Source: Naegleria gruberi (Eukaryota). Taken from it: 64,000 nucleotides of DNA. The position numbers and the translations under genes were made by a program. Below the pieces are notes generated by a model, which was not told the origin of the DNA, did no database searches, and saw only the letters and a list, made by a program, of their open reading frames with translations. This document shows positions 7,357-47,552 of the stretch, piece after piece (the first letter of the stretch is position 1; every line of letters starts with the position of its first letter). The stretch lies in NCBI GenBank assembly GCA_000004985.1, contig GG738861.1. One strand, written 5' to 3'.

Positions 7357-9129
7357 TTATTCCTCATCAGATGGTTCTTCCGTGTCTTCAATGAATGAAT
7401 TATCTTCTTCTGTCAAGCTGTTACTACAACTATTTGAGCTAGGAAGGAAATGATAAAAGGATTTCCAATTAATTATATTTCTGCGATTTTCATTTCTCAG
7501 TGCTTCACATGGGATAATTCCTTCAAGGGTTCGGAGAAGTTTATAATAGACATCCTCTTGACCCTCCTCTTTGAGTTGTGGTAGATAATTAAGGAGATTC
7601 GAATCTCCTTTAAAAATATTTTGGTACAAATGGTTTTTGAGCATTAATTGTTGAACCTCAAATCTTTTGAGATAGATATTCTCTAGTTCTTTCTTATTTT
7701 TAAAGTTGAACAATCGACAGGGGAATCTAGCCCTTCTCTTGTCAAATTTCTTGGCAAGATCTCGATGAGGAACAATAGTTTGAGTTGTTTGCTTATTCAC
7801 TCTCTTTGGTAACCATCTACAAATGTAACTATTTGGAATGTCTGAATAAATAATACTAGTTGATGTGATTTCTGGTTTTCTCTTATCCTTAGTGTTGAGC
7901 AGTAATTCTTTCTCCAATTGTTTCATTTCTTCCTCATTAAAACAAAATCTATTTTTGAAATCCTCAATATCATTAAATGATTCCTTTGCTTTCGAGCATT
8001 TAGTAATAATGGAGTTGTATCTATTTTGCATAGATATTTTAGGAGGTTGAGTAGCAGCTGTTTTCTTAGAATGAATATGTTTTGGAGGAATGAGGTGCCA
8101 TCCACTCTTTTTTGATAATTTGGAAGATAATTCCTCAACTCTTTCATTCACATCGTTGAAAGATTGTAAAACAGAAACAAAGTGTTGGAACCTCTCATCA
8201 ATTGTTACAAAGCTTAGTTTAGGTTCTTCCTCAGATTGTTGAATAGAGTTTTGTGGCTCTTCCTCAGGTTCCGTTTCCTCATTCAAAATTTGTTTTTGTA
8301 CAGGTTCAATATTTACATATTTTTCCTCATTCTCAACTACAGTTCTAGTTGCTGGCTCCTCCTCTCTAGTTCTAATTTTTCTTGCCATTGCAAGAATATC
8401 CTCAAGCTTTTTCTTCTGATTGCTTACTGGTTTTGGTTTTTCTGGAATGTTTGACTCAACTGGAGGAGTTTTGTTTTTTTCATTTACAGTTTTCGAAACA
8501 GTTCCTTTCTTTGCAGGTGTTGAGTTCTGGGCAATGGTTGCCTTCTTTTGAGGAATTGATTTTCTATTTGGTTGAGGTGTTGGTTCTGGCAGAATTTCCA
8601 CTTGCTTAGGTTTTGGTGTTTCTATTTGAGGGGGTTCAAATTTTACAGAGTTTTGCTCTTGTTTAAGTGGAATTGAGTTTGGAACCTTCCTTCTCCTATT
8701 CTTCTTGTCAATCAGTAATTGAGCATTTCTTTCTTCCAACATCTTTTTAATTTGAGCCCTCTCAATCTGTTCCTTTTGTTTTAAAAACACAAATTCTTTC
8801 AATGCCTTTTTAGTGGAAGCATTCACAGATGAAAATACCAAATTAGCAATTTCCAAATCCTTCAATATTGGCTCCAATATTTTCCTATTCAATTTTAATA
8901 ATTTAACTCCCAATTCATTTGTAATCACCCCACTGCCATTTGTATTTCTCCTCTCCGAATTAAAACTATTTGAAACATTTTCATAAATATTTGGCGATGA
9001 TTCATCTCCAGTTGTTGGTGTTGTATTTTTGATTGGTGTCATTGCTTCAAAGTTGTTTGTTATTTCCGAAGTTCTTGCCTCTCTAGATTGTATGATGGTG
9101 TATTGAGGGAGCAAGGTATTTGGTAGCAT
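7357..9129 (-). CDS. Hypothetical low-complexity protein, 590 aa (probably nuclear)
   Basis: Complete ORF with a true ATG. It has P/K/E/T-rich disordered stretches (PEPTPQPNRKSIPQKKATIAQNSTPAKK), basic clusters and an acidic C-terminus (TEEDNSFIEDTEEPSDEE). No domain recognised. Confidence 0.5.
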   Translation of the reverse strand: MLPNTLLPQYTIIQSREARTSEITNNFEAMTPIKNTTPTTGDESSPNIYENVSNSFNSERRNTNGSGVITNELGVKLLKLNRKILEPILKDLEIANLVFSSVNASTKKALKEFVFLKQKEQIERAQIKKMLEERNAQLLIDKKNRRRKVPNSIPLKQEQNSVKFEPPQIETPKPKQVEILPEPTPQPNRKSIPQKKATIAQNSTPAKKGTVSKTVNEKNKTPPVESNIPEKPKPVSNQKKKLEDILAMARKIRTREEEPATRTVVENEEKYVNIEPVQKQILNEETEPEEEPQNSIQQSEEEPKLSFVTIDERFQHFVSVLQSFNDVNERVEELSSKLSKKSGWHLIPPKHIHSKKTAATQPPKISMQNRYNSIITKCSKAKESFNDIEDFKNRFCFNEEEMKQLEKELLLNTKDKRKPEITSTSIIYSDIPNSYICRWLPKRVNKQTTQTIVPHRDLAKKFDKRRARFPCRLFNFKNKKELENIYLKRFEVQQLMLKNHLYQNIFKGDSNLLNYLPQLKEEGQEDVYYKLLRTLEGIIPCEALRNENRRNIINWKSFYHFLPSSNSCSNSLTEEDNSFIEDTEEPSDEE

Positions 9130-22790: not shown

Positions 22791-23391
22791 AAACAAATTA
22801 GATTTAAAGTGTGTAAGTAAACAAGGGACAATTTTCTAATGCTCATAGTTTTTCATTAAGGGATTCAAGGAGATTAAGTTTCTCTAGGTTCTTCTGAATA
22901 TAAGTAGACCTTAAAAAATAGCTGAAAGCTCAACATTTTTTCTCATGAAGTCCCTTTCCTCAAATCCATTCACTATGTTGTTTAGTATTAGAGAAATTGA
23001 TAGGACTTCAATTTTAGCAATCATGCAAGCATATTGAACAAGAAAGAAGCAAGATAGTGGAGAAGAAAAACCAGGGGTAACATCATTTACTCAGGAATAA
23101 ACTTCTTCTTGATAAATTTTCATTAAGAGAGTAGAATCTATCACGATGTTGCAAAGACATAAAAGGATCGGAACCTAAGACAGTGTTTTGTAATTGCCAT
23201 TTTCTATACCAAATCAAATCTCTAAAATACTGTAACATTGGTTCTGTACAGGAAACGTCTGATGCTTTTATTGACCAAAAAAGTTCACTTTAATAATCAC
23301 AAACATCAACAACAAGATGTGTAACCAACCTAAAATAAATGAATCCAACTACCTAGCGCACAGACACTGGAAACTAAACGAAAAAAATTCA

Positions 23392-24597
23392 ATGAGAACA
23401 ATCCTTGTTTTATTGGCTTTGTGTGTTTTAGCACTCGCTGTGAATGGTGCTGACATTAGTTTTATCAGCTCATTTGATGATTATAAACTTTCTTGCAACT
23501 TAAAGACAAAGAATAATACAGTGAATCCAATCTCATCTGGTTATTTGGTTGGGTTATATGCTGAGGGTGGCTCTAGCTATCGTTTGGCCATGATTGACTT
23601 GGACAGTAATGCCATTACTTACATTGGTAATGATGTCTTTAATTCTTATTCATTGGGTGGTGTCGCCATCGACCCAATTAACCACAGATTATTCATCATG
23701 GTTGTTCCATCTCAAACTCCAACAATGAGAACATACAGTCTATTAACTGGTAAAATGTTGTATCAAGTGAATACTTCTGAAATTTCCAACTTGGTTTTTG
23801 AACCAGCATTGGGTAATCTCTATGGATTAGGTTACAATGATTCAATGGTCACAATTTTGGATATTGATTGGGAAACTGGTGAGGATACAATTGTTGCAAC
23901 TACTCCACTCAAAGGATCTACCAATATGATTCGTAATATTAATCCAGCAACATCTGTGATGTATATTTATGGATATGATAGTACCTATTTCAATACTATG
24001 ATTGCTGTCAATTTAACAAGTGGAAGTTGGAAATATTTCAATCCTCCTTCTATTACTTCCTATGTTGCTTTGTTTTCAAATGGTTATCAAGGTAAATCCA
24101 ATGTCCTTGCAATTGCTGAATACGAAGGAAAATATGCTCCTGTTTCCATTGATAGCAATACAAATGTCACTGTAATTGGTTCAACAAGGTTTAATTCATT
24201 GGTCCTGTCTGACAAGGCTTATGACGTTAAGGAAAATGTCATTATTGGAACATTGGAAGATACAAGCAAGATTGTAGTTCTTAATATGACTAGTGGATTG
24301 ATTGTAAAACAAATTCCATTGAATAGTGGTGCTTCTCTTGGACCTGTCTCATACCAACAAATTTGTGTCTGTTGTATTGCTTCTCAAAACACAAGAAGTA
24401 TCTATGGTGGTTCATTGGACAAGTCAATTGTTCTTCCATGTCAAACCAATACTGCATCATCCACCAAAGTAATTGGTACTACTAGTAGTAATGGTACTAT
24501 CAAACCATCTCAGAGCAGAGTTAGTTCTTCCAATTCAAATTTCAATATTTCACTTGTATTCATTGTGATTGTAGGATTTTTGATGGGTCTGTTCTAA
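23392..24597 (+). CDS. Secreted, probably GPI-anchored, N-glycosylated surface protein
   Basis: The cleavable signal peptide starts at the internal ATG 23392 (MRTILVLLALCVLALAVNG). There are many NxS/T sites, a C-terminal S/T-rich stalk and a hydrophobic tail (ISLVFIVIVGFLMGLF*). No family recognised. Confidence 0.55.
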   Translation: MRTILVLLALCVLALAVNGADISFISSFDDYKLSCNLKTKNNTVNPISSGYLVGLYAEGGSSYRLAMIDLDSNAITYIGNDVFNSYSLGGVAIDPINHRLFIMVVPSQTPTMRTYSLLTGKMLYQVNTSEISNLVFEPALGNLYGLGYNDSMVTILDIDWETGEDTIVATTPLKGSTNMIRNINPATSVMYIYGYDSTYFNTMIAVNLTSGSWKYFNPPSITSYVALFSNGYQGKSNVLAIAEYEGKYAPVSIDSNTNVTVIGSTRFNSLVLSDKAYDVKENVIIGTLEDTSKIVVLNMTSGLIVKQIPLNSGASLGPVSYQQICVCCIASQNTRSIYGGSLDKSIVLPCQTNTASSTKVIGTTSSNGTIKPSQSRVSSSNSNFNISLVFIVIVGFLMGLF

Positions 24598-24617
24598 ATA
24601 GATCATGTAGAATAAAA

Positions 24618-26072
24618 TTACTTTCCAAATATTTTTAATCTTTGAATTTCCAATTGTGATTGAATATGATTTAAATCAGTGTTTTGATCCAAAAGCACTT
24701 TGGTTTGAGTTGAATCATTCATTAGAGTGAAGTGCTCAAATAAAGGTTGTTTTAAAAGGATGGAATCATCCATCTCCGTGTTAAAGGTGTCTGAATTTTC
24801 TTGTGAAATTTTCATAGTATCTGAGAGCACCACAAAAGGAATATTGTAAAATCTGGAAATCGAATAGAGTACGCTTGTGCCAGTCTTGTTAGAAATTACA
24901 ATGTCTCCATGACTATAATGGATTGAATCTGATCCTACACACATAAGATCAACCTTTCCAGAACGTGAGAGTAAAGCAACTGCTGCTTCAGTGCAAACTT
25001 GAACTCTTAGATTTTTGATACCCTGATCTAAGGCAAAGTCCTTCAGAGATTTAGCTGTTTTGTACCCTTCCTTTTCTGGCTGAGACTCTGTACAATAGAT
25101 GGTTAAATCAATGGATGCATGTTTTGCATGTAAGTCTAACATTAAATCTTTCAATGATTTAATAACAACACTGCTCCAACTGTGGGTCAATATTGAGATT
25201 TTCTGGGTGTTATCTTTTAAAAATTCTGATTTCACATAATTTTGAAACTTATTTGATAGTAACTGAGTATTGTTTGATATCTTAATGCCAAATTTGTTCA
25301 ATCTGTCTTTCATTTTCTGTACCATATTTTCAAAAGTTTGTTCAGAAATTTGTTTGACAATACTATCCTGATCAAATTGTAATTCACCATTCATTATTTC
25401 TACAAGAGATTGAACAGCCACATTCCTAATCATTGGCATTTCAATTCTACATTGATCTAAAATCCAAACAATGTCTCTCAGTTTCGAAGTTAAAAAAACA
25501 GCTCTCATGCTATCCATATCTATTGAAGAATTCATCAATTTGAAATAATCTGGTATATCTTCAGATGAAAATAAGTTCAAGGCCTTTTTCATAATATCTA
25601 TCGTTTTCAAAGCAATGGTAGTTGCACCATCTGTAAAATTATTAACAATGGTATTGTCTATTTCTACCAATAATTCAGTCTCCAATCCATAGAAAAAGTA
25701 TAATCTGTGAAGAGTGTCTCTTAGATTGGGAACTGTTTCATGTAGGGTGGGAGTGGTGCTGTCATTCATACCCTTCCTCAGAAATTGCTCAGTATCAAAA
25801 ACATTGAATGAATCGTGTTCCCAATCAATCTTGAATCCTAAATTATCAAGTTGGCTAGGGATATCTTTTGAATTTTCTACTGACAATCTAAATAGAAAAG
25901 GATAAACAATAAATCCCTTTCCATTATTTAAAGGCAAATATTGTGGACGACCACTTCGGATGAAGTTCAAATGTTTTCCAACTTGTAATTGTGTTTCTTC
26001 TTGGATTTCTCTGAAGGCACTCCATCGGGCTTTCCACAAAATAATCACCAACCCTATAATCAAACCGATCAT
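24618..26072 (-). CDS. IF-2B family protein (eIF2B alpha/beta/delta or MtnA-like fold); N-terminus unresolved
   Basis: The core matches the IF-2B family (ILTHSWSSVVIKSLKDLM...IDLTIYCTESQPEKEGYKTAKSL...VQVCTEAAVALLSRSGKVDLMCVGSDSIHYSHGDIVISNKTGTSVLYSISRFYNIPFVVLSD). The track start 26111 is a TTG. The first ATG (26072) gives a hydrophobic N-terminus, MIGLIIGLVIILW. See the overlapping Nudix-like ORF. Confidence 0.6.
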   Translation of the reverse strand: MIGLIIGLVIILWKARWSAFREIQEETQLQVGKHLNFIRSGRPQYLPLNNGKGFIVYPFLFRLSVENSKDIPSQLDNLGFKIDWEHDSFNVFDTEQFLRKGMNDSTTPTLHETVPNLRDTLHRLYFFYGLETELLVEIDNTIVNNFTDGATTIALKTIDIMKKALNLFSSEDIPDYFKLMNSSIDMDSMRAVFLTSKLRDIVWILDQCRIEMPMIRNVAVQSLVEIMNGELQFDQDSIVKQISEQTFENMVQKMKDRLNKFGIKISNNTQLLSNKFQNYVKSEFLKDNTQKISILTHSWSSVVIKSLKDLMLDLHAKHASIDLTIYCTESQPEKEGYKTAKSLKDFALDQGIKNLRVQVCTEAAVALLSRSGKVDLMCVGSDSIHYSHGDIVISNKTGTSVLYSISRFYNIPFVVLSDTMKISQENSDTFNTEMDDSILLKQPLFEHFTLMNDSTQTKVLLDQNTDLNHIQSQLEIQRLKIFGK

Positions 26073-26241
26073 TTGAAGAATAATCCACAGGTGGATTGTT
26101 AACCAAGTCAATAGAACCAGAAATTGAAGCCCACATTTTCGGATAAGAATTAACCTTCTCCGATCTTTTAAATAGTAGAATATGTGATTTTTCTTCCTTT
26201 ATCACTTCAATAAAGCCAGTGGCTACTCTTCTCCATTTCAT
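25924..26241 (-). CDS. Nudix-like N-terminal ORF (105 aa) overlapping the IF-2B family gene in another frame
   Basis: MKWRRVATGFIEVIKEEKSHILLFKRSEKVNSYPKMWASISGSID resembles the start of a Nudix fold. The Nudix-box-like REIQEETQL lies in the downstream ORF's frame (+1). This may be the 5' part of a single gene joined by a frameshift or an unrecognised intron. It may also be spurious. Confidence 0.3.
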   Translation of the reverse strand: MKWRRVATGFIEVIKEEKSHILLFKRSEKVNSYPKMWASISGSIDLVNNPPVDYSSNDRFDYRVGDYFVESPMECLQRNPRRNTITSWKTFELHPKWSSTIFAFK

Positions 26242-26312
26242 TTTTTTAAGTTTTGATTTAACTTGAATCTACATATTAAATAAATTAATTTGAATATTTC
26301 CTGATTATAATA

Positions 26313-26540
26313 TTATTTAAATTTCATATTCAAAACAGCATTCATATTATCACTTTCCAATAATGAATCCAAATTAATCCACTTTTTTGAATCGGATTTA
26401 TTTTTCAATTTTGTTTTTTGTTTTTCAACAAGATTATACAATATTCTAGTTCTTTCCTGTTTTTCCAACTCATACTTGGCTTTAATTTGCATCAAGTGAT
26501 TGAAAAAAGCTTGAAGTAACACTTCCGAATCATTTCCCAT
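26313..26540 (-). CDS. Small coiled-coil protein, 75 aa (uncertain)
   Basis: True ATG: MGNDSEVLLQAFFNHLMQIKAKYELEKQERTRILYNLVEKQKTKLKNKSDSKKWINLDSLLESDNMNAVLNMKFK. Confidence 0.3.
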   Translation of the reverse strand: MGNDSEVLLQAFFNHLMQIKAKYELEKQERTRILYNLVEKQKTKLKNKSDSKKWINLDSLLESDNMNAVLNMKFK

Positions 26541-27547: not shown

Positions 27548-29332
27548 ATGCCATCACAAGATAATACAGAACAAACAAGCTTTTCCTTCAGAGTGCGGGT
27601 TGCTGACAATGCCAAAGTTAAAGAAGAAAAGTTCATCGTGGTTGATTCTCAGAAATTACCAAAGAGCATTGATGAATTATTCAAATTGGGAAAAGCCAAA
27701 TTAAATTTAAAGAAGAAGGTGCTTGCACTTTATAATGGAAAATCAGGACAAGTCATTGAATCGGATAGTATTATTCAAAAGTTATTCAATGATTTTACAA
27801 CAGCTAAGAGAAAACAATTACAGGAAGAACAATTAATTGGATCAACAGGATTAGGATCAAAGCCTTCCGATGATTTATTCTTTGTTTTTTCGACCAATTT
27901 AAAACAAACTTTCCAAGGAAAGATTACGCAACCAGTTGAATCGAGTGACAATAATACAACAACATCTTCATCATCAGTTGAAAAGACACCAGAAGTAGTT
28001 GTCTTGATAAAGGACAGTTGGTTGGATGATGGAGCTATTAAACAATTGCAAGATACTGCTCGTACATTGAAATGTGTAAGAAGAGCCACTGGTCAACCTG
28101 ACCTTCATCCAGGTAAAACATTCCCAGTAGGAGCTGCCATTTCAACTGTAGATTACATCTACCCACCACTCGTTGGTAATGATATTGGGTGTGGTATGAG
28201 TTTGTATCAAACTAATTTAACATCAGATAGAGGATTGAAACAATTAGAAAAATGGGTGAAACAACTCAACGGATTAGAAAGAGGAGGAATTAGCGGCGAT
28301 GAAAGTAGACCTGTATTGGATGTTGAAAGAAAATTCTTTGGATTGGATTCTAGTGAGGATTTGCTTTCAGCCACATCTACTAACTCTGAAAATGTAGATT
28401 TTGAATTACATGAAGCCACAACTGAATTTATTGAAAAATATTTAACCTATTTTGATGTAGATTTGGGTCAACTCCAAGAAGTTACTCCAAATCTTGAATC
28501 GGAAGAGGGTGTTACCTCTCCGCCAAAGAGTGAAAATAAGGCCTTGGAATTTGCCATTCGTCAACTTGGTACTGTCGGAGGTGGAAATCACTTTGCAGAG
28601 CTTCAAATCGTCGAAAAGATTTGTAATGAAAAGATTTTTGAAGAAGAATTGAAACTTTCAAAGGATGCTTGCTTTTTGATGGTTCATAGTGGATCAAGAT
28701 CCCTTGGTGATCATATTCTTGGAGAACATGAGGATAAATTTGGAAATAGTGGCTTGCTTTTTGACTCGGATGATGCAAAGCACTATATGAAATGTCACGA
28801 CAATGCTTGTAGATGGGCAAAGGCCAACAGAGCTCTCATTGCCAGAAAGTTCCTTACTTGCATTAACGGAAATGGTAAAATGATTCTTGACATTTGCCAC
28901 AACAATGTTGTAGAAAAACAAGTTGAAAATGAAAGAGTTTTCATTCACAGAAAGGGTGCTGCACCAACAGATGCTGGTTACTTCTGCATTCCTGGTTCGA
29001 GAGGATCATTCTCCTATCTTGTTCGTGGACGTGAAGAAGATATTGAAAGCCAAATTCGTTGTAATTTTTCAGCTGCACACGGTGCTGGCAGAAAATGGAA
29101 GCGTTCCAAATCAGTTGGTATGGCCGCAAAGGAAAATGTTCAATCCTTCACAGTTACTGACCTCGGATCTCATGTCATTTGTGAAGATAAGAATTTACTT
29201 TTTGAAGAACAACCTGCTGCTTACAAGGATATCGATGCAGTCATTTCAGATTTAGTTCATTTTGGGGTTGTTGAAGTTGTTGCCATTATGAGACCACTCA
29301 TTACCTACAAGATGAGAAACTGTTGCCATTAA
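27548..29332 (+). CDS. RtcB-family RNA ligase of bacterial (E. coli RtcB) type, with a 170-aa N-terminal beta-grasp/CIDE-N-like extension
   Basis: All RtcB catalytic motifs are present (PDLHPGKTFPVGAAI; GNDIGCGMSLYQTNL; GGGNHFAELQ; VHSGSRSLGDHI; ICHNNVVE; HRKGAAPT; AAHGAGRKWKRS; AYKDIDAV). The best resemblance is to bacterial RtcB (VDIGCGMNALRTAL, GTGNHFIEIC, HSGSRGIGN, SHGAGRVMSRTKAKK, MAYKDIDAV). The eukaryotic HSPC117 type is not the closest match. The N-terminus FSFRVRVADNAKVKEEKFIVVDSQKLPKSIDELFKLGKAKLNLKKKVLALYNGKSGQVIESDSIIQKLF is CIDE-N/beta-grasp-like. Confidence 0.8.
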   Translation: MPSQDNTEQTSFSFRVRVADNAKVKEEKFIVVDSQKLPKSIDELFKLGKAKLNLKKKVLALYNGKSGQVIESDSIIQKLFNDFTTAKRKQLQEEQLIGSTGLGSKPSDDLFFVFSTNLKQTFQGKITQPVESSDNNTTTSSSSVEKTPEVVVLIKDSWLDDGAIKQLQDTARTLKCVRRATGQPDLHPGKTFPVGAAISTVDYIYPPLVGNDIGCGMSLYQTNLTSDRGLKQLEKWVKQLNGLERGGISGDESRPVLDVERKFFGLDSSEDLLSATSTNSENVDFELHEATTEFIEKYLTYFDVDLGQLQEVTPNLESEEGVTSPPKSENKALEFAIRQLGTVGGGNHFAELQIVEKICNEKIFEEELKLSKDACFLMVHSGSRSLGDHILGEHEDKFGNSGLLFDSDDAKHYMKCHDNACRWAKANRALIARKFLTCINGNGKMILDICHNNVVEKQVENERVFIHRKGAAPTDAGYFCIPGSRGSFSYLVRGREEDIESQIRCNFSAAHGAGRKWKRSKSVGMAAKENVQSFTVTDLGSHVICEDKNLLFEEQPAAYKDIDAVISDLVHFGVVEVVAIMRPLITYKMRNCCH

Positions 29333-35138: not shown

Positions 35139-38096
35139 TTATTTCTTTCTCTTCTTGGCTTGCTTATTCTTAATGGATCCAATTGCATTGAGAACTCTTT
35201 TACTCTCAATTTCAGCTGCCTTCTTCTTTTTCTTGTCTGCTTCGAATATGAATCGTTCGAGGGGAGTCATTTCTTCTACTTTTTTACTTCTGATGGCTTG
35301 CCTCTTCTTTCTCTCTGTTAGAATTGGTTGAATGTACGAATCAACTTCCTCCCTCGACATATTCATTCGTTCTAGACAGAAAGTGTAAAATCCTTGCCAA
35401 TTCAATTTTGGTGGGTCAGTAGAAGAAGAAGAAGCAGTAACTTGAGACGATGAGGATTGAGTTGATGGATCACTATCAATATCTGCCCAAACAAAATCTG
35501 AAAGAGAATCATCTACTTGTGGTTTCGTGTAGGCATCAATAATCTTACTATCTGGGAATCCTTCTGGGAAGATGAATTTCTTCTTGGAACCCTTGTAATT
35601 GAATTGGAAATCACCCTTTTTACCCCATGATTTTTGAGTTCGTCCCATATTGAAAGTGTCGTCCTCAACCCATAATTTGAAATCCTTCAATCCCTGGGTA
35701 ACTTCTTCTAAATTATCTTCATCGAGTTCTTTTTCTTCAGGGTTGAAGGCGTCCACAACTTGAGTTGCTGTCACAGGACCAACATTATGTACACCATCCG
35801 TATAGTCAGAGCCCAATAAAAGAGCTATCTGAATTAGATTAGTCCTTGTAAATCCCAAAACTTTGAAAATATTATCCATTCTATATTCTTCAATAATATT
35901 CTTGTCGATATGCCTTGTCGATCCAAATACATTTCTATATACACAATTTGCACCGAACAAAAACAAGTCAGAATCCTCAGTAATGACAGCATCCACTAAA
36001 TTATGTTTAGATAAAAATCCACATTGAGCATCGGCTTCGCTAGGTGAAACCAAGTAAGGAACACCAAGATAGGTCAATAAATCTTTGGCCAGGTCCACCA
36101 AGGCGAAGAAGAGATTTGTTGTTTTCGACTTGGAGTTAAAGAGATCGATCATTGGGTAATCAGAGTCGAACATGGCCTGCTCAAACCTAGCCGCATTCAT
36201 TTCTTGCATTCTTGCCTCTTCATCGCTAACCAGAGGAACCGAACTCATTTTCAATAATGCTTCCTGTTCATTTTCAAATGAATCATCCATAGAGTTCATG
36301 GATTCATTTGTAATTGATACACTTGATTGGGAGGGAGTGACTTCTTCCACTTCATCATCGCTGCTGTCGATTTGAACAGGTTCAAAATCATCTTCAATGA
36401 CTACTTGTTCATCAATATCTATTGGTATTGGTTCTTCTGGTTGAGCCTGCACTTCATCCCACTCATCTGTGTCACCTCCAGCCACAGCTGGTGGTGATTT
36501 ACCTTGAACCTCCTCAAATTCATCCTCCTCCACTAATTGAGCGGTTTCCCATTCTTCATTCATGTTTCGTCTAATAGAATCCCCACTTTCCACTATTGTT
36601 GAAAATATTGAATCTGGTAGCATATCACTATCAGAAATATTATCAAGATCATTATTTGAAAATGTTATTTGAATTTCATCGTCTTCATCATCAAATTCAT
36701 TTTCTACATTGATAGGAGCTTTACCTTTTGCAGCAGGTAGTATTTCCTCTTGCTCTACAACTTCCTTTCTTGAGAGAAAGTCGCTAAATCTTTGAATTGT
36801 TTCCTTACTTAACTCTGCCTTTTGAGTATTGATAGGAGTCTCTCTTTGTTCTTTTTCTTTTGGTGGAGTTTTCTCGAGGAGGACATATCCTTGATTTGGA
36901 TTTGATGCCAGTCTACCACCTGCTACAATTTGAAAGTTTCCAATGTCACCTTCCACAGAGGAAATCGATGAAGAGGCTCTATTCGACTTTGGAGTTGTTT
37001 GTGAAGCTGATTGGAAAATTGATGGCTCCTCATCCTCTTCAAAGAATCCCATACCCATTTCATCAGATTCTTGTTCCACTTCTACTTCCACTGGCTCCTC
37101 TTTAACCATTGTTATTTCATCATTGCTTTGTGAAGATCCAATATTCTGAGGTAGAGAATCCAATAAATGTTGTCTCTCTGAAACTTCCAATAATTTCTTC
37201 AATTGTAATGATGCTTGACTTCCCTTAATAAAAGAATCAAGTTGAGTAGTAGAGAATTTTTCAGGAGTCTTTTTCTTCAAATCTCTAATATGGGAATCGG
37301 GTTTGAATCTCTTAGATCTACGCAGTTGTTTGATAATATCCTGTTGAATTTCCTTTGGCAGTTGTGTAAAAACCTCTGGATCAACTCCAGATCCTAAATC
37401 CAAATTTGCATTCATATCCACTCTTTCAATAGCTTCAAATGAATCATTCATTGCTCCTTCATAATTTCTCTCATCACACAATATTGAAACTTCTTCATCC
37501 TTTACACTTGTTTGTTGATTGTTTGAACTATTTACACCACTCGAACTTGCAACACCACTACTTGATGCAACCGACGAAGAAGATGATGATGGCATTGCAA
37601 AATCAAAATCCTCCTCATATTTTGGTGACTCAGGTTCCTTAGCTTTTTTCATATTTATCAATTTTCTATCTATGGAAGAAACTCCCGAATGTTTCTCCAA
37701 CATTCTTCTATTCAATAACTTTTTCGCCACTTTTTTCAATCGAAAATTATGTTTGGTTGATCTCATTCTTCTCTTTTGAATTGTTTTCTGTTTTACAAGT
37801 GGAGTTGCACCATCAAATATAAAAATTGGTTTGATGTCATAATATAATAATTTACAAATTCTCTTAAATAAAGCCTTCAAATATCTAACTTGAGAAAACG
37901 ATGCTTGACCTGTTTGATTATTGGCTCCTCGACCAAAGAAGAATTCATCATCATGATCCTCTAATCCCATTCCGAGCATGAATTGATGAAGCCAAACACT
38001 AATATCCACAGCAACAGTCTTTCCCGAGAGTACATCAAGACTCTGCACTTGAAATGCCGCAGGACGCAACAAATCCCACAACCCTTTTACGCCCAT
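35139..38096 (-). CDS. XPG/Rad2/ERCC5-family DNA repair endonuclease
   Basis: The XPG-N domain is at the N-terminus (MGVKGLWDLLRPAAFQVQSLDVLSGKTVAVDISVWLHQF). A long acidic/serine spacer is followed by XPG-I (LLTYLGVPYLVSPSEADAQCGFLSKHNLVDAVITEDSDLFLFGANCVYRN) and a basic C-terminus. Single 985-aa ORF with a true ATG. Confidence 0.85.
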   Translation of the reverse strand: MGVKGLWDLLRPAAFQVQSLDVLSGKTVAVDISVWLHQFMLGMGLEDHDDEFFFGRGANNQTGQASFSQVRYLKALFKRICKLLYYDIKPIFIFDGATPLVKQKTIQKRRMRSTKHNFRLKKVAKKLLNRRMLEKHSGVSSIDRKLINMKKAKEPESPKYEEDFDFAMPSSSSSSVASSSGVASSSGVNSSNNQQTSVKDEEVSILCDERNYEGAMNDSFEAIERVDMNANLDLGSGVDPEVFTQLPKEIQQDIIKQLRRSKRFKPDSHIRDLKKKTPEKFSTTQLDSFIKGSQASLQLKKLLEVSERQHLLDSLPQNIGSSQSNDEITMVKEEPVEVEVEQESDEMGMGFFEEDEEPSIFQSASQTTPKSNRASSSISSVEGDIGNFQIVAGGRLASNPNQGYVLLEKTPPKEKEQRETPINTQKAELSKETIQRFSDFLSRKEVVEQEEILPAAKGKAPINVENEFDDEDDEIQITFSNNDLDNISDSDMLPDSIFSTIVESGDSIRRNMNEEWETAQLVEEDEFEEVQGKSPPAVAGGDTDEWDEVQAQPEEPIPIDIDEQVVIEDDFEPVQIDSSDDEVEEVTPSQSSVSITNESMNSMDDSFENEQEALLKMSSVPLVSDEEARMQEMNAARFEQAMFDSDYPMIDLFNSKSKTTNLFFALVDLAKDLLTYLGVPYLVSPSEADAQCGFLSKHNLVDAVITEDSDLFLFGANCVYRNVFGSTRHIDKNIIEEYRMDNIFKVLGFTRTNLIQIALLLGSDYTDGVHNVGPVTATQVVDAFNPEEKELDEDNLEEVTQGLKDFKLWVEDDTFNMGRTQKSWGKKGDFQFNYKGSKKKFIFPEGFPDSKIIDAYTKPQVDDSLSDFVWADIDSDPSTQSSSSQVTASSSSTDPPKLNWQGFYTFCLERMNMSREEVDSYIQPILTERKKRQAIRSKKVEEMTPLERFIFEADKKKKKAAEIESKRVLNAIGSIKNKQAKKRKK

Positions 38097-42675: not shown

Positions 42676-42860
42676 ACTATTATAATTAAACTAATCAATG
42701 AATTCATTATTTACTTCTATTGCTCATAAAAAAGTGACTTTTTACCTTTGGATAGAGACTTATATTCAACATTGTGGATGGAGAAAAGAATGATTATCAA
42801 GGTATTGTCTAATGCTGTATATGAAAACAAATATATGAATAATAATTCATAATTATGTAT

Positions 42861-42932
42861 TCCCGTGTAGTCCAATGGCTAGGATACCTGGCTTTCACCC
42901 AGGAGGTCCGGGTTCAATTCCCGGCATGGGAG
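42861..42932 (+). tRNA. tRNA-Glu (anticodon UUC)
   Basis: TCCCGTGTAGTCCAATGGCTAGGATACCTGGCTTTCACCCAGGAGGTCCGGGTTCAATTCCCGGCATGGGAG folds as a cloverleaf. The acceptor stem is TCCCGTG/CATGGGA with one G-T pair. The anticodon stem is CCTGG/CCAGG around the loop cTTTCAc. The T-arm is GGTTCAATTCC. There is no intron. Confidence 0.9.
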
Positions 42933-42937
42933 AATAC

Positions 42938-46310: not shown

Positions 46311-47552
46311 TTAATAATTAACTTTTGGTTGAATGAATGTTGAAGTTCGTTTCATTCTCCTCAGAGATGACTGTTCCTGAGCTGGTTCTTCCTCACGTAC
46401 AATTTGAATTCCACTTGTTGTCAATAATCCACCACCACTCTCTTCATCTTTTGAATTCTTTTGAGAAGGGGATGAGTACATGGATTTTAGTTTTACAAGT
46501 GTTGAACCTACTCTCTTTCTATTATTCGAATCATCGTTCTCTGTTGCATTTTGATGATCAGAGGTATCCGAGTTTGCATGTTGATGCTTGTTTTGGTTCT
46601 TTGAGGCCATATTTCTCATCACCTCAATGGATTTGATAAATTCGGCAACTTCTTTAGGTTGCTGAATAGATTTTTCAATTGCATTTAAAGTTTCGTACAA
46701 ATCTGAAATGCTAATTAAACGATCTGACTTCATGTAACACATCCATTTGAGTGTAAATTTGATAATTTCTTTCATATTGAGAGGTGTGTTAATAATTGAA
46801 ACATCTACTAGGTATTTCTGTACAGCTTTGATCAAATCCAAATGTTCAGCAATCAACAGTAAAAGTTCATTCATAGAGTTGACTGAAAATTTTAACATTT
46901 TCTCAATAGTGGTATTACTACTAAACAGTAATGAAAAGCAAACACTCTTCAGAATGACCCTCTTTGCCAATGTAATTTCAGTTTTAAAAACTGTTGTTTC
47001 TAACACTGAATTTCCACAAACTTCTCCAAATAGAGAAAGAGCATTTTCCATTGTCATTTTGGTATTTTCTGGAAGATTGAGAATTTCAGTCTTTTCAAAT
47101 TTAGTTTTGGCAATGATTTGTGTAGCAGCTTCTCCCATCAATATCTTTTTCAATACTGTTATCAAATTGATAATCTTGAAACGATAGGCCATCATTATAA
47201 ATTCACTCAAATCATTCACTTGACAATTGACAACTCCAGAGTAAAAGTATTCAATGAGACTTTTGAATATTTTGAGAGGTTCTTGAATGGGAATTGTAAG
47301 AATTGATGAATTGGATACTGTTCCTGATGAAGATCCTCTCGGAGTAAGAACCTTCTCATGAACATCAAATAAATTCTTAAAATATCGATTTTGATAGAGC
47401 ATGAATTTGTGTGCATAGATTTTACCTTCCAATGTTTCAAAGATAACGTCTGGGAATGATTCTGCATTGTTAAAACATTCGGAAAAAGTGCAATCAAAGC
47501 AGGGGACAGATATCAGATTGTTTGACATTTTTTTTTTAACGTATGATGGCAT
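46311..47552 (-). CDS. BTB/POZ-domain protein
   Basis: The N-terminal BTB fold is FPDVIFETLEGKIYAHKFMLYQNRYFKNLFDVHEK...IPIQEPLKIFKSLIEYFYSGVVNCQVNDLSEFIMMAYRFKI. A helical region and an S/Q-rich C-terminus follow. True ATG at 47552. Confidence 0.65.
   Translation of the reverse strand: MPSYVKKKMSNNLISVPCFDCTFSECFNNAESFPDVIFETLEGKIYAHKFMLYQNRYFKNLFDVHEKVLTPRGSSSGTVSNSSILTIPIQEPLKIFKSLIEYFYSGVVNCQVNDLSEFIMMAYRFKIINLITVLKKILMGEAATQIIAKTKFEKTEILNLPENTKMTMENALSLFGEVCGNSVLETTVFKTEITLAKRVILKSVCFSLLFSSNTTIEKMLKFSVNSMNELLLLIAEHLDLIKAVQKYLVDVSIINTPLNMKEIIKFTLKWMCYMKSDRLISISDLYETLNAIEKSIQQPKEVAEFIKSIEVMRNMASKNQNKHQHANSDTSDHQNATENDDSNNRKRVGSTLVKLKSMYSSPSQKNSKDEESGGGLLTTSGIQIVREEEPAQEQSSLRRMKRTSTFIQPKVNY

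What the first reader, a model, noticed from the sequence alone, without database searches (positions are those of the whole stretch)
24618..26241. Nudix-like ORF and IF-2B-family ORF overlap by 190 nt in +1 register: a frameshifted fusion, a hidden intron, or chance overlap
ORF A (26241..25924) begins like a Nudix hydrolase (hilLFKRSEKVNSYPKMWASISGSID resembles LLvqR...g.W.lPGGxvE). A Nudix-box-like REIQEETQL lies immediately downstream but in the frame of ORF B, which continues into a clear IF-2B/MtnA/ribose-1,5-bisphosphate-isomerase-type core. No GT...AG interval of suitable length converts frame A to frame B in the overlap. Three readings remain: a genuine Nudix to sugar-phosphate-isomerase fusion interrupted by a 1-nt indel (assembly error, recent pseudogenisation or programmed frameshift); two overlapping genes; or ORF B starting at ATG 26072 with a hydrophobic N-terminus and ORF A spurious. 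A Nudix-IF-2B fusion would point to a nucleotide or ADP-ribose salvage module, not translation initiation.
Basis: partly seen in the sequence, partly recalled or inferred. Interest (0 to 1): 0.6.

Follow-up and report, generated by a model that had tools for sequence, protein, structure and literature searches.

The report
Frameshifted Nudix–IF-2B gene in Naegleria
The two overlapping reading frames are one Naegleria gruberi gene for a Nudix hydrolase fused to an IF-2B-like sugar-phosphate-binding domain, broken in this assembly by a missing TG; this is an ordinary lesion in a widespread but functionally untested protein family.

Summary
ORF A (26241..25924) and ORF B (26111..24618) lie on the minus strand, overlap by 188 nt and are offset by +1. 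The window is Naegleria gruberi NEG-M. A 99.5%-identical environmental contig carries one uninterrupted 541-aa ORF here. The only length difference is GAGTGTGCC (contig) versus GAGTGCC (window): one TG is lost between 26018 and 26017, inside the Nudix catalytic helix. The N. fowleri, N. lovaniensis and Willaertia orthologues are single proteins, and the N. fowleri gene is intronless. So this is a frameshifted fusion gene with a 2-nt lesion, not 1 nt. It is not an intron, a programmed frameshift or two genes. I could not decide whether the deletion is a real null allele or a sequence error.

The Nudix plus IF-2B architecture is already recorded (fungal NUDIX "subfamily B") but has not been studied experimentally. 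I found it fused or as adjacent genes in archaea and bacteria. The IF-2B domain is closest to ribose-1,5-bisphosphate isomerase, but its catalytic Cys is always Ser and two 1-phosphate ligands are lost. Bacterial neighbours are PncC/CinA in 15 loci and an ADP-ribosylglycohydrolase in one. These favour a role in NAD/ADP-ribose recycling over translation initiation. Interest is low to moderate.

The parts
26019..26241 (-). 5' part of the gene in frame A: codons 1-74 and the first base of codon 75 (M1..E74, T of C75). It encodes the N-terminal beta strands of the Nudix domain and a Naegleria-specific loop.
   Evidence: Identical to L001 36-258. Aligns with orthologue N-termini (RSEKV..W..SGSI).
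26017..26020 (-). Lesion: one TG (or GT) unit missing. The intact allele reads GAG TGT GCC TTC (E C A F); the window reads GAG TGC CTT C. The gap is placed between 26018 and 26017, but its position within GTG is ambiguous.
   Evidence: It is the only indel inside a coding region in the 4.9-kb alignment with L001, and it is also present against L002.
25986..26034 (-). Nudix box E70-x7-R78-E79-I80-x-E82-E83-x-Q85-L86, split across the two frames by the lesion.
   Evidence: E79, E82 and E83 are near-invariant in the family. Predicted helix 72-84.
25770..26232 (-). Nudix domain (aa 4-158 of the repaired protein), including the conserved D-W-E-H motif at aa 140-143.
   Evidence: PF00293 scores 30.4 bits over 4-158 in the repaired N-terminus. 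W141, E142 and H143 are conserved.
24768..25628 (-). IF-2B-like domain (aa 206-492 of the repaired protein). S355 (25181..25179) sits at the position of the R15P-isomerase catalytic Cys. D439 (24929..24927) sits at the catalytic Asp.
   Evidence: PF01008 scores 64.9-65.9 bits. Profile alignment to PH0208/TK0185. Residue counts. Fold match to eIF2B alpha/beta, PH0440 and R15Pi.
24618..26018 (-). 3' part of the gene in frame B: codons 76-541 plus the stop codon at 24620..24618.
   Evidence: Translation equals P0001 76-541 except A421S, A423G and Y443S.
25924..26016 (-). Out-of-frame tail of ORF A (30 codons, LQRNPRRN...AFK, then the stop codon). It is not conserved coding sequence.
   Evidence: It has no counterpart in P0001-P0003.

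Best explanation
This is one intronless N. gruberi gene (26241..24618, minus strand). In its intact form it encodes a 541-aa protein with an N-terminal Nudix pyrophosphohydrolase domain and a C-terminal IF-2B-like domain. In this assembly one TG of a GTGTG run is missing at 26018|26017, within codons 75/76, at the start of the Nudix catalytic helix. Translation from ATG 26241 therefore runs out of frame and stops at 25924, giving ORF A: 75 native residues plus a 30-residue junk tail, without the REIQEE helix. The rest of the gene appears as ORF B. As written, the allele cannot make the full protein. All of this is shown directly by the sequence comparison.

Whether the deletion is a true mutation (a null allele, one haplotype, or a lab-strain pseudogene) or a draft-assembly error is not resolved. 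I put it at roughly even odds.

The function of the intact protein is inferred, not shown. The Nudix domain would hydrolyse a nucleoside-diphosphate-X compound, with ADP-ribose or NAD-type substrates the best guess. The IF-2B-like domain keeps the pentose and 5-phosphate ligands of ribose-1,5-bisphosphate isomerase. It has Ser in place of the catalytic Cys and lacks two 1-phosphate ligands. It would therefore bind, and perhaps process by different chemistry, a pentose-5-phosphate product or effector. The module probably belongs to pyridine-nucleotide/ADP-ribose recycling, not to translation initiation.
For: Organism: 7 of 10 window ORFs are exact N. gruberi NEG-M proteins.

Intact allele: P0001 is 541 aa, carries PF00293 plus PF01008, and is 99% identical. 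Its contigs L001/L002 align to 26276..24354 at 99.5% with a single 2-nt gap, GAGTGTGCC versus GAGTG--CC. Inserting TG gives a 541-aa ORF that differs from P0001 at 3 residues.

Orthologues: N. lovaniensis and N. fowleri align over 100% of the length and read ...FECAIRELEEETQL across the lesion. The N. fowleri gene is one uninterrupted 1932-nt ORF, seen in two independent assemblies.

Pfam NUDIX scores: 30.4 bits for the repaired protein; 21.0-24.3 for the four GT..AG readings scored and for a +1 frameshift at the lesion; 14.6 for ORF B from its ATG; no hit for ORF A.

Family: 670 representatives at E<=1e-30. Named members come from Willaertia, Glomeromycota, Neolecta, Helarchaeota, Nitrososphaerales and Euryarchaeota. 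In GTDB genomes the two domains are fused, encoded by adjacent overlapping same-strand genes, or encoded by convergent neighbours.

Active site: in the profile alignment to PH0208, Cys135 is Ser in 183/185 sequences. Asp204, Ser137, Asn214, Lys215, Lys240 and Arg65 are conserved. Arg22 is mostly Ser and Gln166 is Glu in 181/184. The prokaryotic partner proteins have Ser in 33/33. The PH0208 C135S mutant is catalytically inactive but still binds R15P and RuBP (PMC5789824).

Context: CinA/PncC (PF02464; TIGR00199 145 bits against a cut-off of 68.9) lies next to the Nudix gene in most of 15 of 77 loci, spread over Dehalococcoidia, Clostridia and Aerophobetes. One operon reads cinA, Nudix, ADP-ribosylglycohydrolase, IF-2B-like.
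Against: No independent NEG-M reads or transcripts were available, so real mutation and assembly error cannot be separated.

The three amino-acid differences from P0001 are all non-synonymous. The neighbouring intact gene shows 6 non-synonymous to 3 synonymous differences, so this does not indicate decay. The window's residues at 421 and 423 also occur in other family members.

The functional inference rests on gene neighbourhoods in bacteria, dominated by one class (Dehalococcoidia), and on one ARH-containing locus. No substrate has been tested for any member. The weak Nudix similarities point in several directions: Ap4A hydrolase, CoA pyrophosphatase, NudB, NudI. An invariant Ser/Asp/Glu pocket could still be catalytic.
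Confidence: 0.9

Rival explanations
1. A hidden spliceosomal intron in the overlap joins frame A to frame B, for example 26065..26011 (55 nt) or 26117..26054 (64 nt).
For: 23 GT/GC..AG intervals of length 1 mod 3 convert frame A to frame B without a stop. Fungal homologues lack the Naegleria loop, so a shorter product is not absurd.
Against: The near-identical allele is continuous coding sequence through the whole interval and differs only by the TG. Every candidate removes E70 and/or the start of the catalytic helix, and those scored reach 21.0-24.3 bits against 30.4 for the TG repair. The N. fowleri orthologue is intronless. The candidate donor sites (GTTTGA, GTTCTA) do not look like a standard GTAAGT-type donor; this last point rests on general knowledge, not on a test here.
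Confidence: 0.02
2. Programmed +1 ribosomal frameshifting in the overlap yields the fusion protein from the sequence as written.
For: The frames are in +1 register and both stay open across a 188-nt overlap, or about 275 nt counting the stop-free stretch of frame B upstream of its first start codon.
Against: All orthologues and the sister allele are single-frame. A shift at the lesion gives ECFRE, which is one residue short and changes E-x7-RE to E-x6-RE, and it drops NUDIX to 21.0 bits. No recognisable shift-prone site was seen; I did not test this formally.
Confidence: 0.02
3. These are two separately functional genes, or ORF B alone from ATG 26072 with ORF A spurious, as in bacteria where the Nudix and IF-2B-like proteins are separate.
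For: In several bacteria the two proteins really are encoded by adjacent genes that overlap by 10-20 nt (L023, L036, L053, L054, L070).
Against: In those bacteria the break falls at the domain boundary (profile positions about 155/165). Here it cuts the Nudix domain at profile position about 75. ORF A lacks the catalytic helix, and ORF B would start with an out-of-frame hydrophobic peptide and lack the N-terminal sheet (NUDIX 14.6 bits, below the cut-off). ORF A's first 75 residues are conserved with orthologues, so it is not spurious.
Confidence: 0.03
4. The IF-2B-like domain is a working ribose-1,5-bisphosphate or methylthioribose-1-phosphate isomerase fed by Nudix-generated R15P from PRPP.
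For: The family profile's best PDB matches are R15P isomerases (E 5e-28). Some Nudix enzymes convert PRPP to R15P (Fisher et al. 2002 J Biol Chem 277:47313; I saw only the title, in the reference list of PMC4856261).
Against: The catalytic Cys is Ser in 183/185 family members, and the best-scoring PDB entries are the C-to-S mutants. C135S is inactive (PMC5789824). The 1-phosphate ligands Arg22 and Gln166 are replaced, the latter by Glu. TIGR00511 scores 33.5 against a cut-off of 314.1, and TIGR00512 scores 35.6 against 279.
Confidence: 0.08

Closest known systems
Nudix-IF-2B fusion proteins: fungal NUDIX 'subfamily B' (PMC12210691); N. fowleri FDP41_003385, N. lovaniensis C9374_002592, Willaertia magna ABK040_005467
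   Same: Same two-domain order. They align along the full length. They share the invariant residues RSEKV, SGSI, RE.xEE, DWEH, T.S.SS, ESRP..EG, G.D and NK.G.
   Different: The window copy is frameshifted, and no N. gruberi protein appeared among the database hits. Naegleria species carry an extra loop of 22-60 aa inside the Nudix box. No member of the family has been characterised experimentally.
Ribose-1,5-bisphosphate isomerase (P. horikoshii PH0208, 5YFJ; T. kodakarensis TK0185, 3A11)
   Same: Best sequence-profile match in the PDB, and the same fold. The catalytic Asp, the 5-phosphate ligands (Ser137, Lys240), the sugar ligands (Asn214, Lys215) and Arg65 are conserved.
   Different: The catalytic Cys is an invariant Ser. 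Arg22 is mostly Ser and Gln166 is Glu. The score is far below the TIGR00511 cut-off. The domain is fused to, or paired with, a Nudix domain.
P. horikoshii PH0440 'aIF-2B' (1VB5)
   Same: High score over the C-terminal domain alone (90.7 bits over 185 profile positions). It also has THSFSS and ..YEG, that is, Ser at the Cys position and Glu at the Gln166 position.
   Different: It is a stand-alone protein of 276 aa with no Nudix partner in the chain. The family scores below the NF006210 cut-off. I did not look up its function.
eIF2B alpha (human, 3ECS/7KMF)
   Same: Top Foldseek matches. Like eIF2B alpha, the family keeps the 5-phosphate and sugar ligands but lacks the catalytic Cys and the 1-phosphate ligands (PMC5789824). 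7KMF is titled 'Sugar phosphate activation of the stress sensor eIF2B'.
   Different: There is no evidence of association with eIF2 or eIF2B. The family has Asp, not Glu, in the G-x-D motif. It is fused to a hydrolase, and it occurs in bacteria, which lack eIF2B.
Bacterial cinA(pncC)-nudix-IF-2B-like gene clusters (e.g. L053, L054, L070, L043)
   Same: The same Nudix subtype (E79/E82/E83, W-E-H) and the same Ser-type IF-2B-like protein.
   Different: The domains are encoded by separate genes, some overlapping. A PncC and, in one locus, an ADP-ribosylglycohydrolase are present. I did not look for these partners near the Naegleria gene.

Membership tests
Pfam NUDIX (PF00293) | HMM score at or above the gathering cut-off (21.1 bits) | tested here: met
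   The repaired N-terminus scores 30.4 bits. My first hand-made join scored 26.8. ORF A alone has no hit, and ORF B from its ATG scores 14.6, so the window as written does not meet the cut-off in either single frame.
Pfam NUDIX (PF00293) | Nudix box GX5EX7REUXEEXGU with the catalytic REUxEE glutamates | tested here: met
   E70-x7-R78-E79-I80-Q-E82-E83-T-Q85-L86 in the repaired protein. E79, E82 and E83 are conserved in 128-131 of about 135 family sequences. There are two deviations: Gln/Thr at the penultimate Gly, and the N-terminal G-x5 spacing is interrupted by a 22-aa loop.
Pfam IF-2B (PF01008) | HMM score at or above the gathering cut-off (22.4 bits) | tested here: met
   65.9 bits, E 4.6e-18, for ORF B. 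The predicted fold matches eIF2B alpha/beta, PH0440 and R15Pi.
Ribose-1,5-bisphosphate isomerase (TIGR00511 ribulose_e2b2) | Curated equivalog cut-off (314.1 bits) | tested here: not met
   33.5 bits for P0001 and 179.5 for archaeal P0160.
Ribose-1,5-bisphosphate isomerase (TIGR00511 ribulose_e2b2) | Catalytic Cys (Cys135 in PH0208, Cys133 in TK0185) | tested here: not met
   Ser355 in the gene. Ser in 183/185 family representatives and 33/33 prokaryotic partners. The C135S mutant is inactive (PMC5789824).
Ribose-1,5-bisphosphate isomerase (TIGR00511 ribulose_e2b2) | Catalytic Asp (Asp204) and the 5-phosphate/sugar ligands Ser137, Asn214, Lys215, Lys240 | tested here: met
   D439, S357, N452, K453 and K478 are invariant or nearly so. 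In many split bacterial partners Lys215 is Gly.
Ribose-1,5-bisphosphate isomerase (TIGR00511 ribulose_e2b2) | 1-phosphate ligands Arg22, Arg65 and Gln166 | tested here: not met
   Arg65 is kept (R266). Arg22 is Asp in N. gruberi and Ser in most members. Gln166 is Glu in 181/184.
Methylthioribose-1-phosphate isomerase MtnA (TIGR00512) | Curated equivalog cut-off (279 bits) | tested here: not met
   35.6 bits. PDB MtnA entries rank below R15Pi and eIF2B alpha.
eIF2B / aIF-2B regulatory subunits | Curated models NF006210 (alpha, cut-off 339) and NF004994 (delta, cut-off 249); assembly with eIF2B and binding of eIF2 alpha | tested here: not met
   41.9 and 37.2 bits. Complex formation is not testable with these tools.
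Nudix-IF-2B fusion family (fungal NUDIX subfamily B and relatives) | PF00293 followed by PF01008 in one polypeptide, alignable end to end with other members | tested here: met
   Met by the intact allele P0001 and by the TG-repaired window sequence. The window sequence as written encodes it only in two frames.

The most novel reading that the evidence does not exclude
The Nudix plus 'Ser-type' IF-2B-like pair is a conserved, uncharacterised module found in Asgard and other archaea, in Chloroflexota, Clostridia and Aerophobetes, and patchily in eukaryotes (Heterolobosea, fungi). It would carry out or regulate an unrecognised step of NAD/ADP-ribose recycling alongside PncC. Its IF-2B-like domain would act as a Cys-independent pentose-phosphate isomerase or as a sugar-phosphate sensor. 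That would make it a living example of the transition between archaeal sugar-phosphate isomerases and the ligand-sensing regulatory subunits of eIF2B.
Probability: 0.3. Interest if true: 0.6.

Novelty: new member of a known kind. Interest (0 to 1): 0.3.

Why it matters
For N. gruberi, the gene does not appear in the reference protein set because of a 2-nt lesion: no N. gruberi hit turned up. Comparative studies that work from protein sets could therefore score it as absent. PMC9928731 reports 599 genes 'absent in N. gruberi' but present in N. fowleri and N. lovaniensis. I did not check whether this gene is among them.

It also matters whether NEG-M, the standard laboratory strain, is a natural knock-out of this gene. 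If it is, the strain would be a ready-made control for functional work.

For the family, the fusion, the split operons and the PncC/ARH neighbours together give a concrete, testable hypothesis for a protein that is often auto-named 'translation initiation factor eIF-2B subunit' or 'methylthioribose-1-phosphate isomerase'. Both names fail the tests made here.

Tried and rejected
- **Exact-pattern scan.** I scanned JGI metagenome contigs across the lesion, allowing 0-2 extra bases. It found nothing.
- **Gene calls around the locus.** A look-up of contigs encoding the neighbouring 426-aa protein found nothing on record. The absence of a gene model therefore rests only.
- **Second word-indexed protein search.** Run with the family profile, it returned essentially the same 43 proteins. 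The exhaustive representative search was needed instead.
- **Test for relaxed constraint.** The gene shows 3 non-synonymous and 0 synonymous differences from the intact allele. The intact neighbouring gene shows 6 to 3, so the test does not discriminate.
- **Literature search for PRJEB11402.** No papers, so the origin of the intact allele is unknown. It could be another strain or the other haplotype.
- **First locus search.** The 14-sequence archaeal alignment A2 was too diverse for the locus search. The 5-sequence alignment A3 worked.
- **Other neighbour families.** Lactamase_B, radical SAM and DUF362 recur only within closely related genomes and were not taken as functional links. The aIF2 alpha neighbour occurs in one Nitrososphaerales lineage only.
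- **Not pursued.** I did not look up the exact ORF A and ORF B proteins, because would already have shown them as near-identical hits.
Full report
**Observation.** On the minus strand, ORF A runs 26241..25924 (105 aa, ATG start). ORF B runs 26111..24618 (497 aa from a TTG; its first ATG is at 26072). They overlap by 188 nt, and frame B is displaced by +1 nt from frame A. ORF A alone hits no Pfam family. ORF B hits IF-2B (PF01008, 65.9 bits against a cut-off of 22.4). A hand-made join of A to B recovered a NUDIX hit above the cut-off. So the description is accurate and is clearly more than chance.

**Source.** Seven of ten long window ORFs are exact matches to NCBI proteins of Naegleria gruberi NEG-M. 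For example, 23317-24597 is EFC45813 and 27548-29332 is EFC45815. The window is gene-dense and about 34% G+C, and it carries one tRNA-Glu.

**What broke the frame.** A search with the joined protein returned P0001. P0001 is 541 aa, 99% identical, covers 100% of the query and carries PF00293 plus PF01008. It comes from an ENA/Logan assembly of run ERR1078381.
- Its contigs L001 and L002 align to window 26276..24354 at 99.5% identity.
- The alignment has a single 2-nt gap: GGAGTGTGCCTTC in the contig against GGAGTG--CCTTC in the window.
- One TG of a GTGTG run is therefore missing between 26018 and 26017, within codons 75/76.
- Re-inserting TG gives a 541-aa ORF that differs from P0001 only at A421S, A423G and Y443S.
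- It is the only indel in coding sequence across the 4.9-kb comparison. The other 18 indels are intergenic.
- The lesion sits inside the Nudix box (E70-SPMEC|AF-R78-E79-I-Q-E82-E83-T-Q-L86), at the start of the predicted catalytic helix, residues 72-84.

**Orthologues.** N. lovaniensis (626 aa) and N. fowleri (643 aa) align over the whole length at 38% identity. They read ...NAFECAIRELEEETQL in one frame across the lesion. The N. fowleri gene is a single uninterrupted 1932-nt ORF found in two independent assemblies. Willaertia magna also has an orthologue. No N. gruberi protein appeared among the hits, so the gene seems to be missing from the reference protein set.

**Rival readings.**
Those scored reach 21.0-24.3 bits on Pfam NUDIX, against 30.4 for the TG repair.
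- *+1 ribosomal frameshift.* A shift at the lesion gives ECFRE, one residue short, and scores 21.0 bits.
- *ORF B alone.* From its ATG it scores 14.6 bits, below the cut-off.
- *Two genes.* Bacteria do have separate, slightly overlapping Nudix and IF-2B-like genes, but there the break is at the domain boundary. Here it cuts the Nudix domain in two.

The intron, programmed-frameshift and two-gene readings are therefore rejected.

**Real mutation or error?** I could not decide this. The three substitutions relative to P0001 are all non-synonymous. The intact neighbouring gene shows 6 non-synonymous to 3 synonymous differences. The window's residues at 421 and 423 also occur in other family members. 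So there is no sign of decay beyond the frameshift. A pattern scan of JGI metagenomes found nothing, and the origin of ERR1078381 is undocumented in the paper library. N. gruberi is reported to be heterozygous (PMC9928731, citing Fritz-Laylin 2010), so a heterozygous null allele is possible.

**The family.** The Nudix plus IF-2B architecture is recorded in fungi as NUDIX 'subfamily B', without experimental work (PMC12210691).
- An exhaustive profile search found 670 representatives at E<=1e-30.
- Named members include Ambispora, Neolecta, Helarchaeota, Nitrososphaerales and a euryarchaeal MAG.
- In GTDB genomes the two domains occur in four arrangements:
  - fused (Nitrososphaeria, Bathyarchaeota, Haloferax, some Dehalococcoidia);
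  - adjacent overlapping same-strand genes (Ktedonobacterales, Chloroflexota, Clostridia, Aerophobetes);
  - convergent neighbours (Dehalococcoidales);
  - a stand-alone Nudix of about 135 aa.

This recurrent fusion and adjacency argues for a functional link between the two parts.

**The IF-2B-like domain.** The family profile matches R15P isomerases best in the PDB (E 5e-28), followed by PH0440 and eIF2B alpha. The top entries are the C135S and C133S mutants, because the family has Ser at the catalytic Cys position. I counted the residue at each PH0208 active-site position across 189 sequences.

| PH0208 residue | Role | State in the family |
|---|---|---|
| Cys135 | catalytic | Ser in 183/185 |
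| Asp204 | catalytic | Asp in 183/183 |
| Ser137, Lys240 | 5-phosphate ligands | conserved |
| Asn214, Lys215 | sugar ligands | conserved |
| Arg65 | 1-phosphate ligand | conserved |
| Arg22 | 1-phosphate ligand | mostly Ser |
| Gln166 | 1-phosphate ligand | Glu in 181/184 |

All 33 prokaryotic partner proteins also have Ser at the Cys position. PH0208 C135S is inactive yet still binds R15P and RuBP. The same paper notes that eIF2B alpha keeps the 5-phosphate and sugar ligands but lacks the Cys and the 1-phosphate ligands (PMC5789824). No NCBIfam equivalog cut-off (R15Pi, MtnA, aIF-2B alpha or delta) is approached. The domain is thus a distinct 'Ser-type' IF-2B clade. It most likely binds a pentose-5-phosphate, and it is not a member of the R15Pi or MtnA families.

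**Context clues.** The only neighbour that recurs across phyla is CinA/PncC, the NMN deamidase domain. It appears in 15 of 77 loci, in most of them next to the Nudix gene, and it scores above the TIGR00199 cut-off. One bacterial operon reads cinA, Nudix, ADP-ribosylglycohydrolase, IF-2B-like. It remains an inference, drawn mostly from Chloroflexota.

**Verdict.** This is an ordinary 2-nt frameshift, or possibly a sequence error, in the N. gruberi copy of a known but uncharacterised fusion family. The locus itself is of low interest. The family deserves biochemical attention.

Noticed in passing
window 24597-24618: The 426-aa plus-strand gene (EFC45813) and the Nudix-IF-2B gene are convergent, with only 20 nt between their stop codons, so their 3' UTRs must overlap or be extremely short. 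The upstream minus-strand ORF ends at 26313, 71 nt before the ATG at 26241.
   Followed up: no
window 42860-42933 (+): tRNA-Glu (anticodon TTC). It is the only Rfam or ARAGORN hit in the window.
   Followed up: no
L043 14-2709 (MAG bacterium JBHIEA010000096.1): Apparent operon on one strand: cinA/pncC, Nudix, ADP-ribosylglycohydrolase (PF03747), IF-2B-like. It links the module to ADP-ribose metabolism, but it was seen in one locus only.
   Followed up: partly
L003 10096-10875; L005 10078-10860 (Nitrososphaeria): In L003 an aIF2 alpha gene (S1 + EIF_2_alpha) lies about 0.8 kb downstream of the fused Nudix-IF-2B gene. Three neighbour ORFs in the batch scan carry these domains; I assume the other two are the syntenic ORFs of L005 and L004. 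This is suggestive, because eIF2B regulatory subunits bind eIF2 alpha, but it is confined to one lineage.
   Followed up: partly
window 26109-26035 (aa 45-69 of the repaired protein); P0002/P0003: Naegleria species carry an insertion inside the Nudix box loop: about 22 aa in N. gruberi and 50-60 aa in N. fowleri and N. lovaniensis. It has low model confidence (pLDDT below 50 at residues 50-65). It probably explains why the precomputed Pfam annotation of P0002 and P0003 lists only IF-2B.
   Followed up: partly
window 26358-26513 (-) vs L083 2646-2915: The small ORF just upstream of the gene is weakly similar (tblastn E 0.11) to the 89-aa gene at the same relative position in N. fowleri. This may be conserved micro-synteny. 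The larger N. fowleri neighbours (RCC1-like, Sel1) have no match in the window.
   Followed up: partly
window 7357-9129, 35139-38096, 46311-47552 (all -): These three long ATG-started ORFs are not exact matches to any protein in the collection, unlike seven others. The reference gene models there may differ in start codon or introns, or may carry other lesions.
   Followed up: no
L024-L032, L035, L037-L039 and others: Many archaea (Bathyarchaeia, Nitrososphaeraceae, Thermoplasmata, Aenigmatarchaeota) encode a stand-alone Nudix of about 135 aa of the same subtype (W-E-H motif), with no IF-2B-like gene detected in the locus fetched (up to 8 kb on each side).
   Followed up: no
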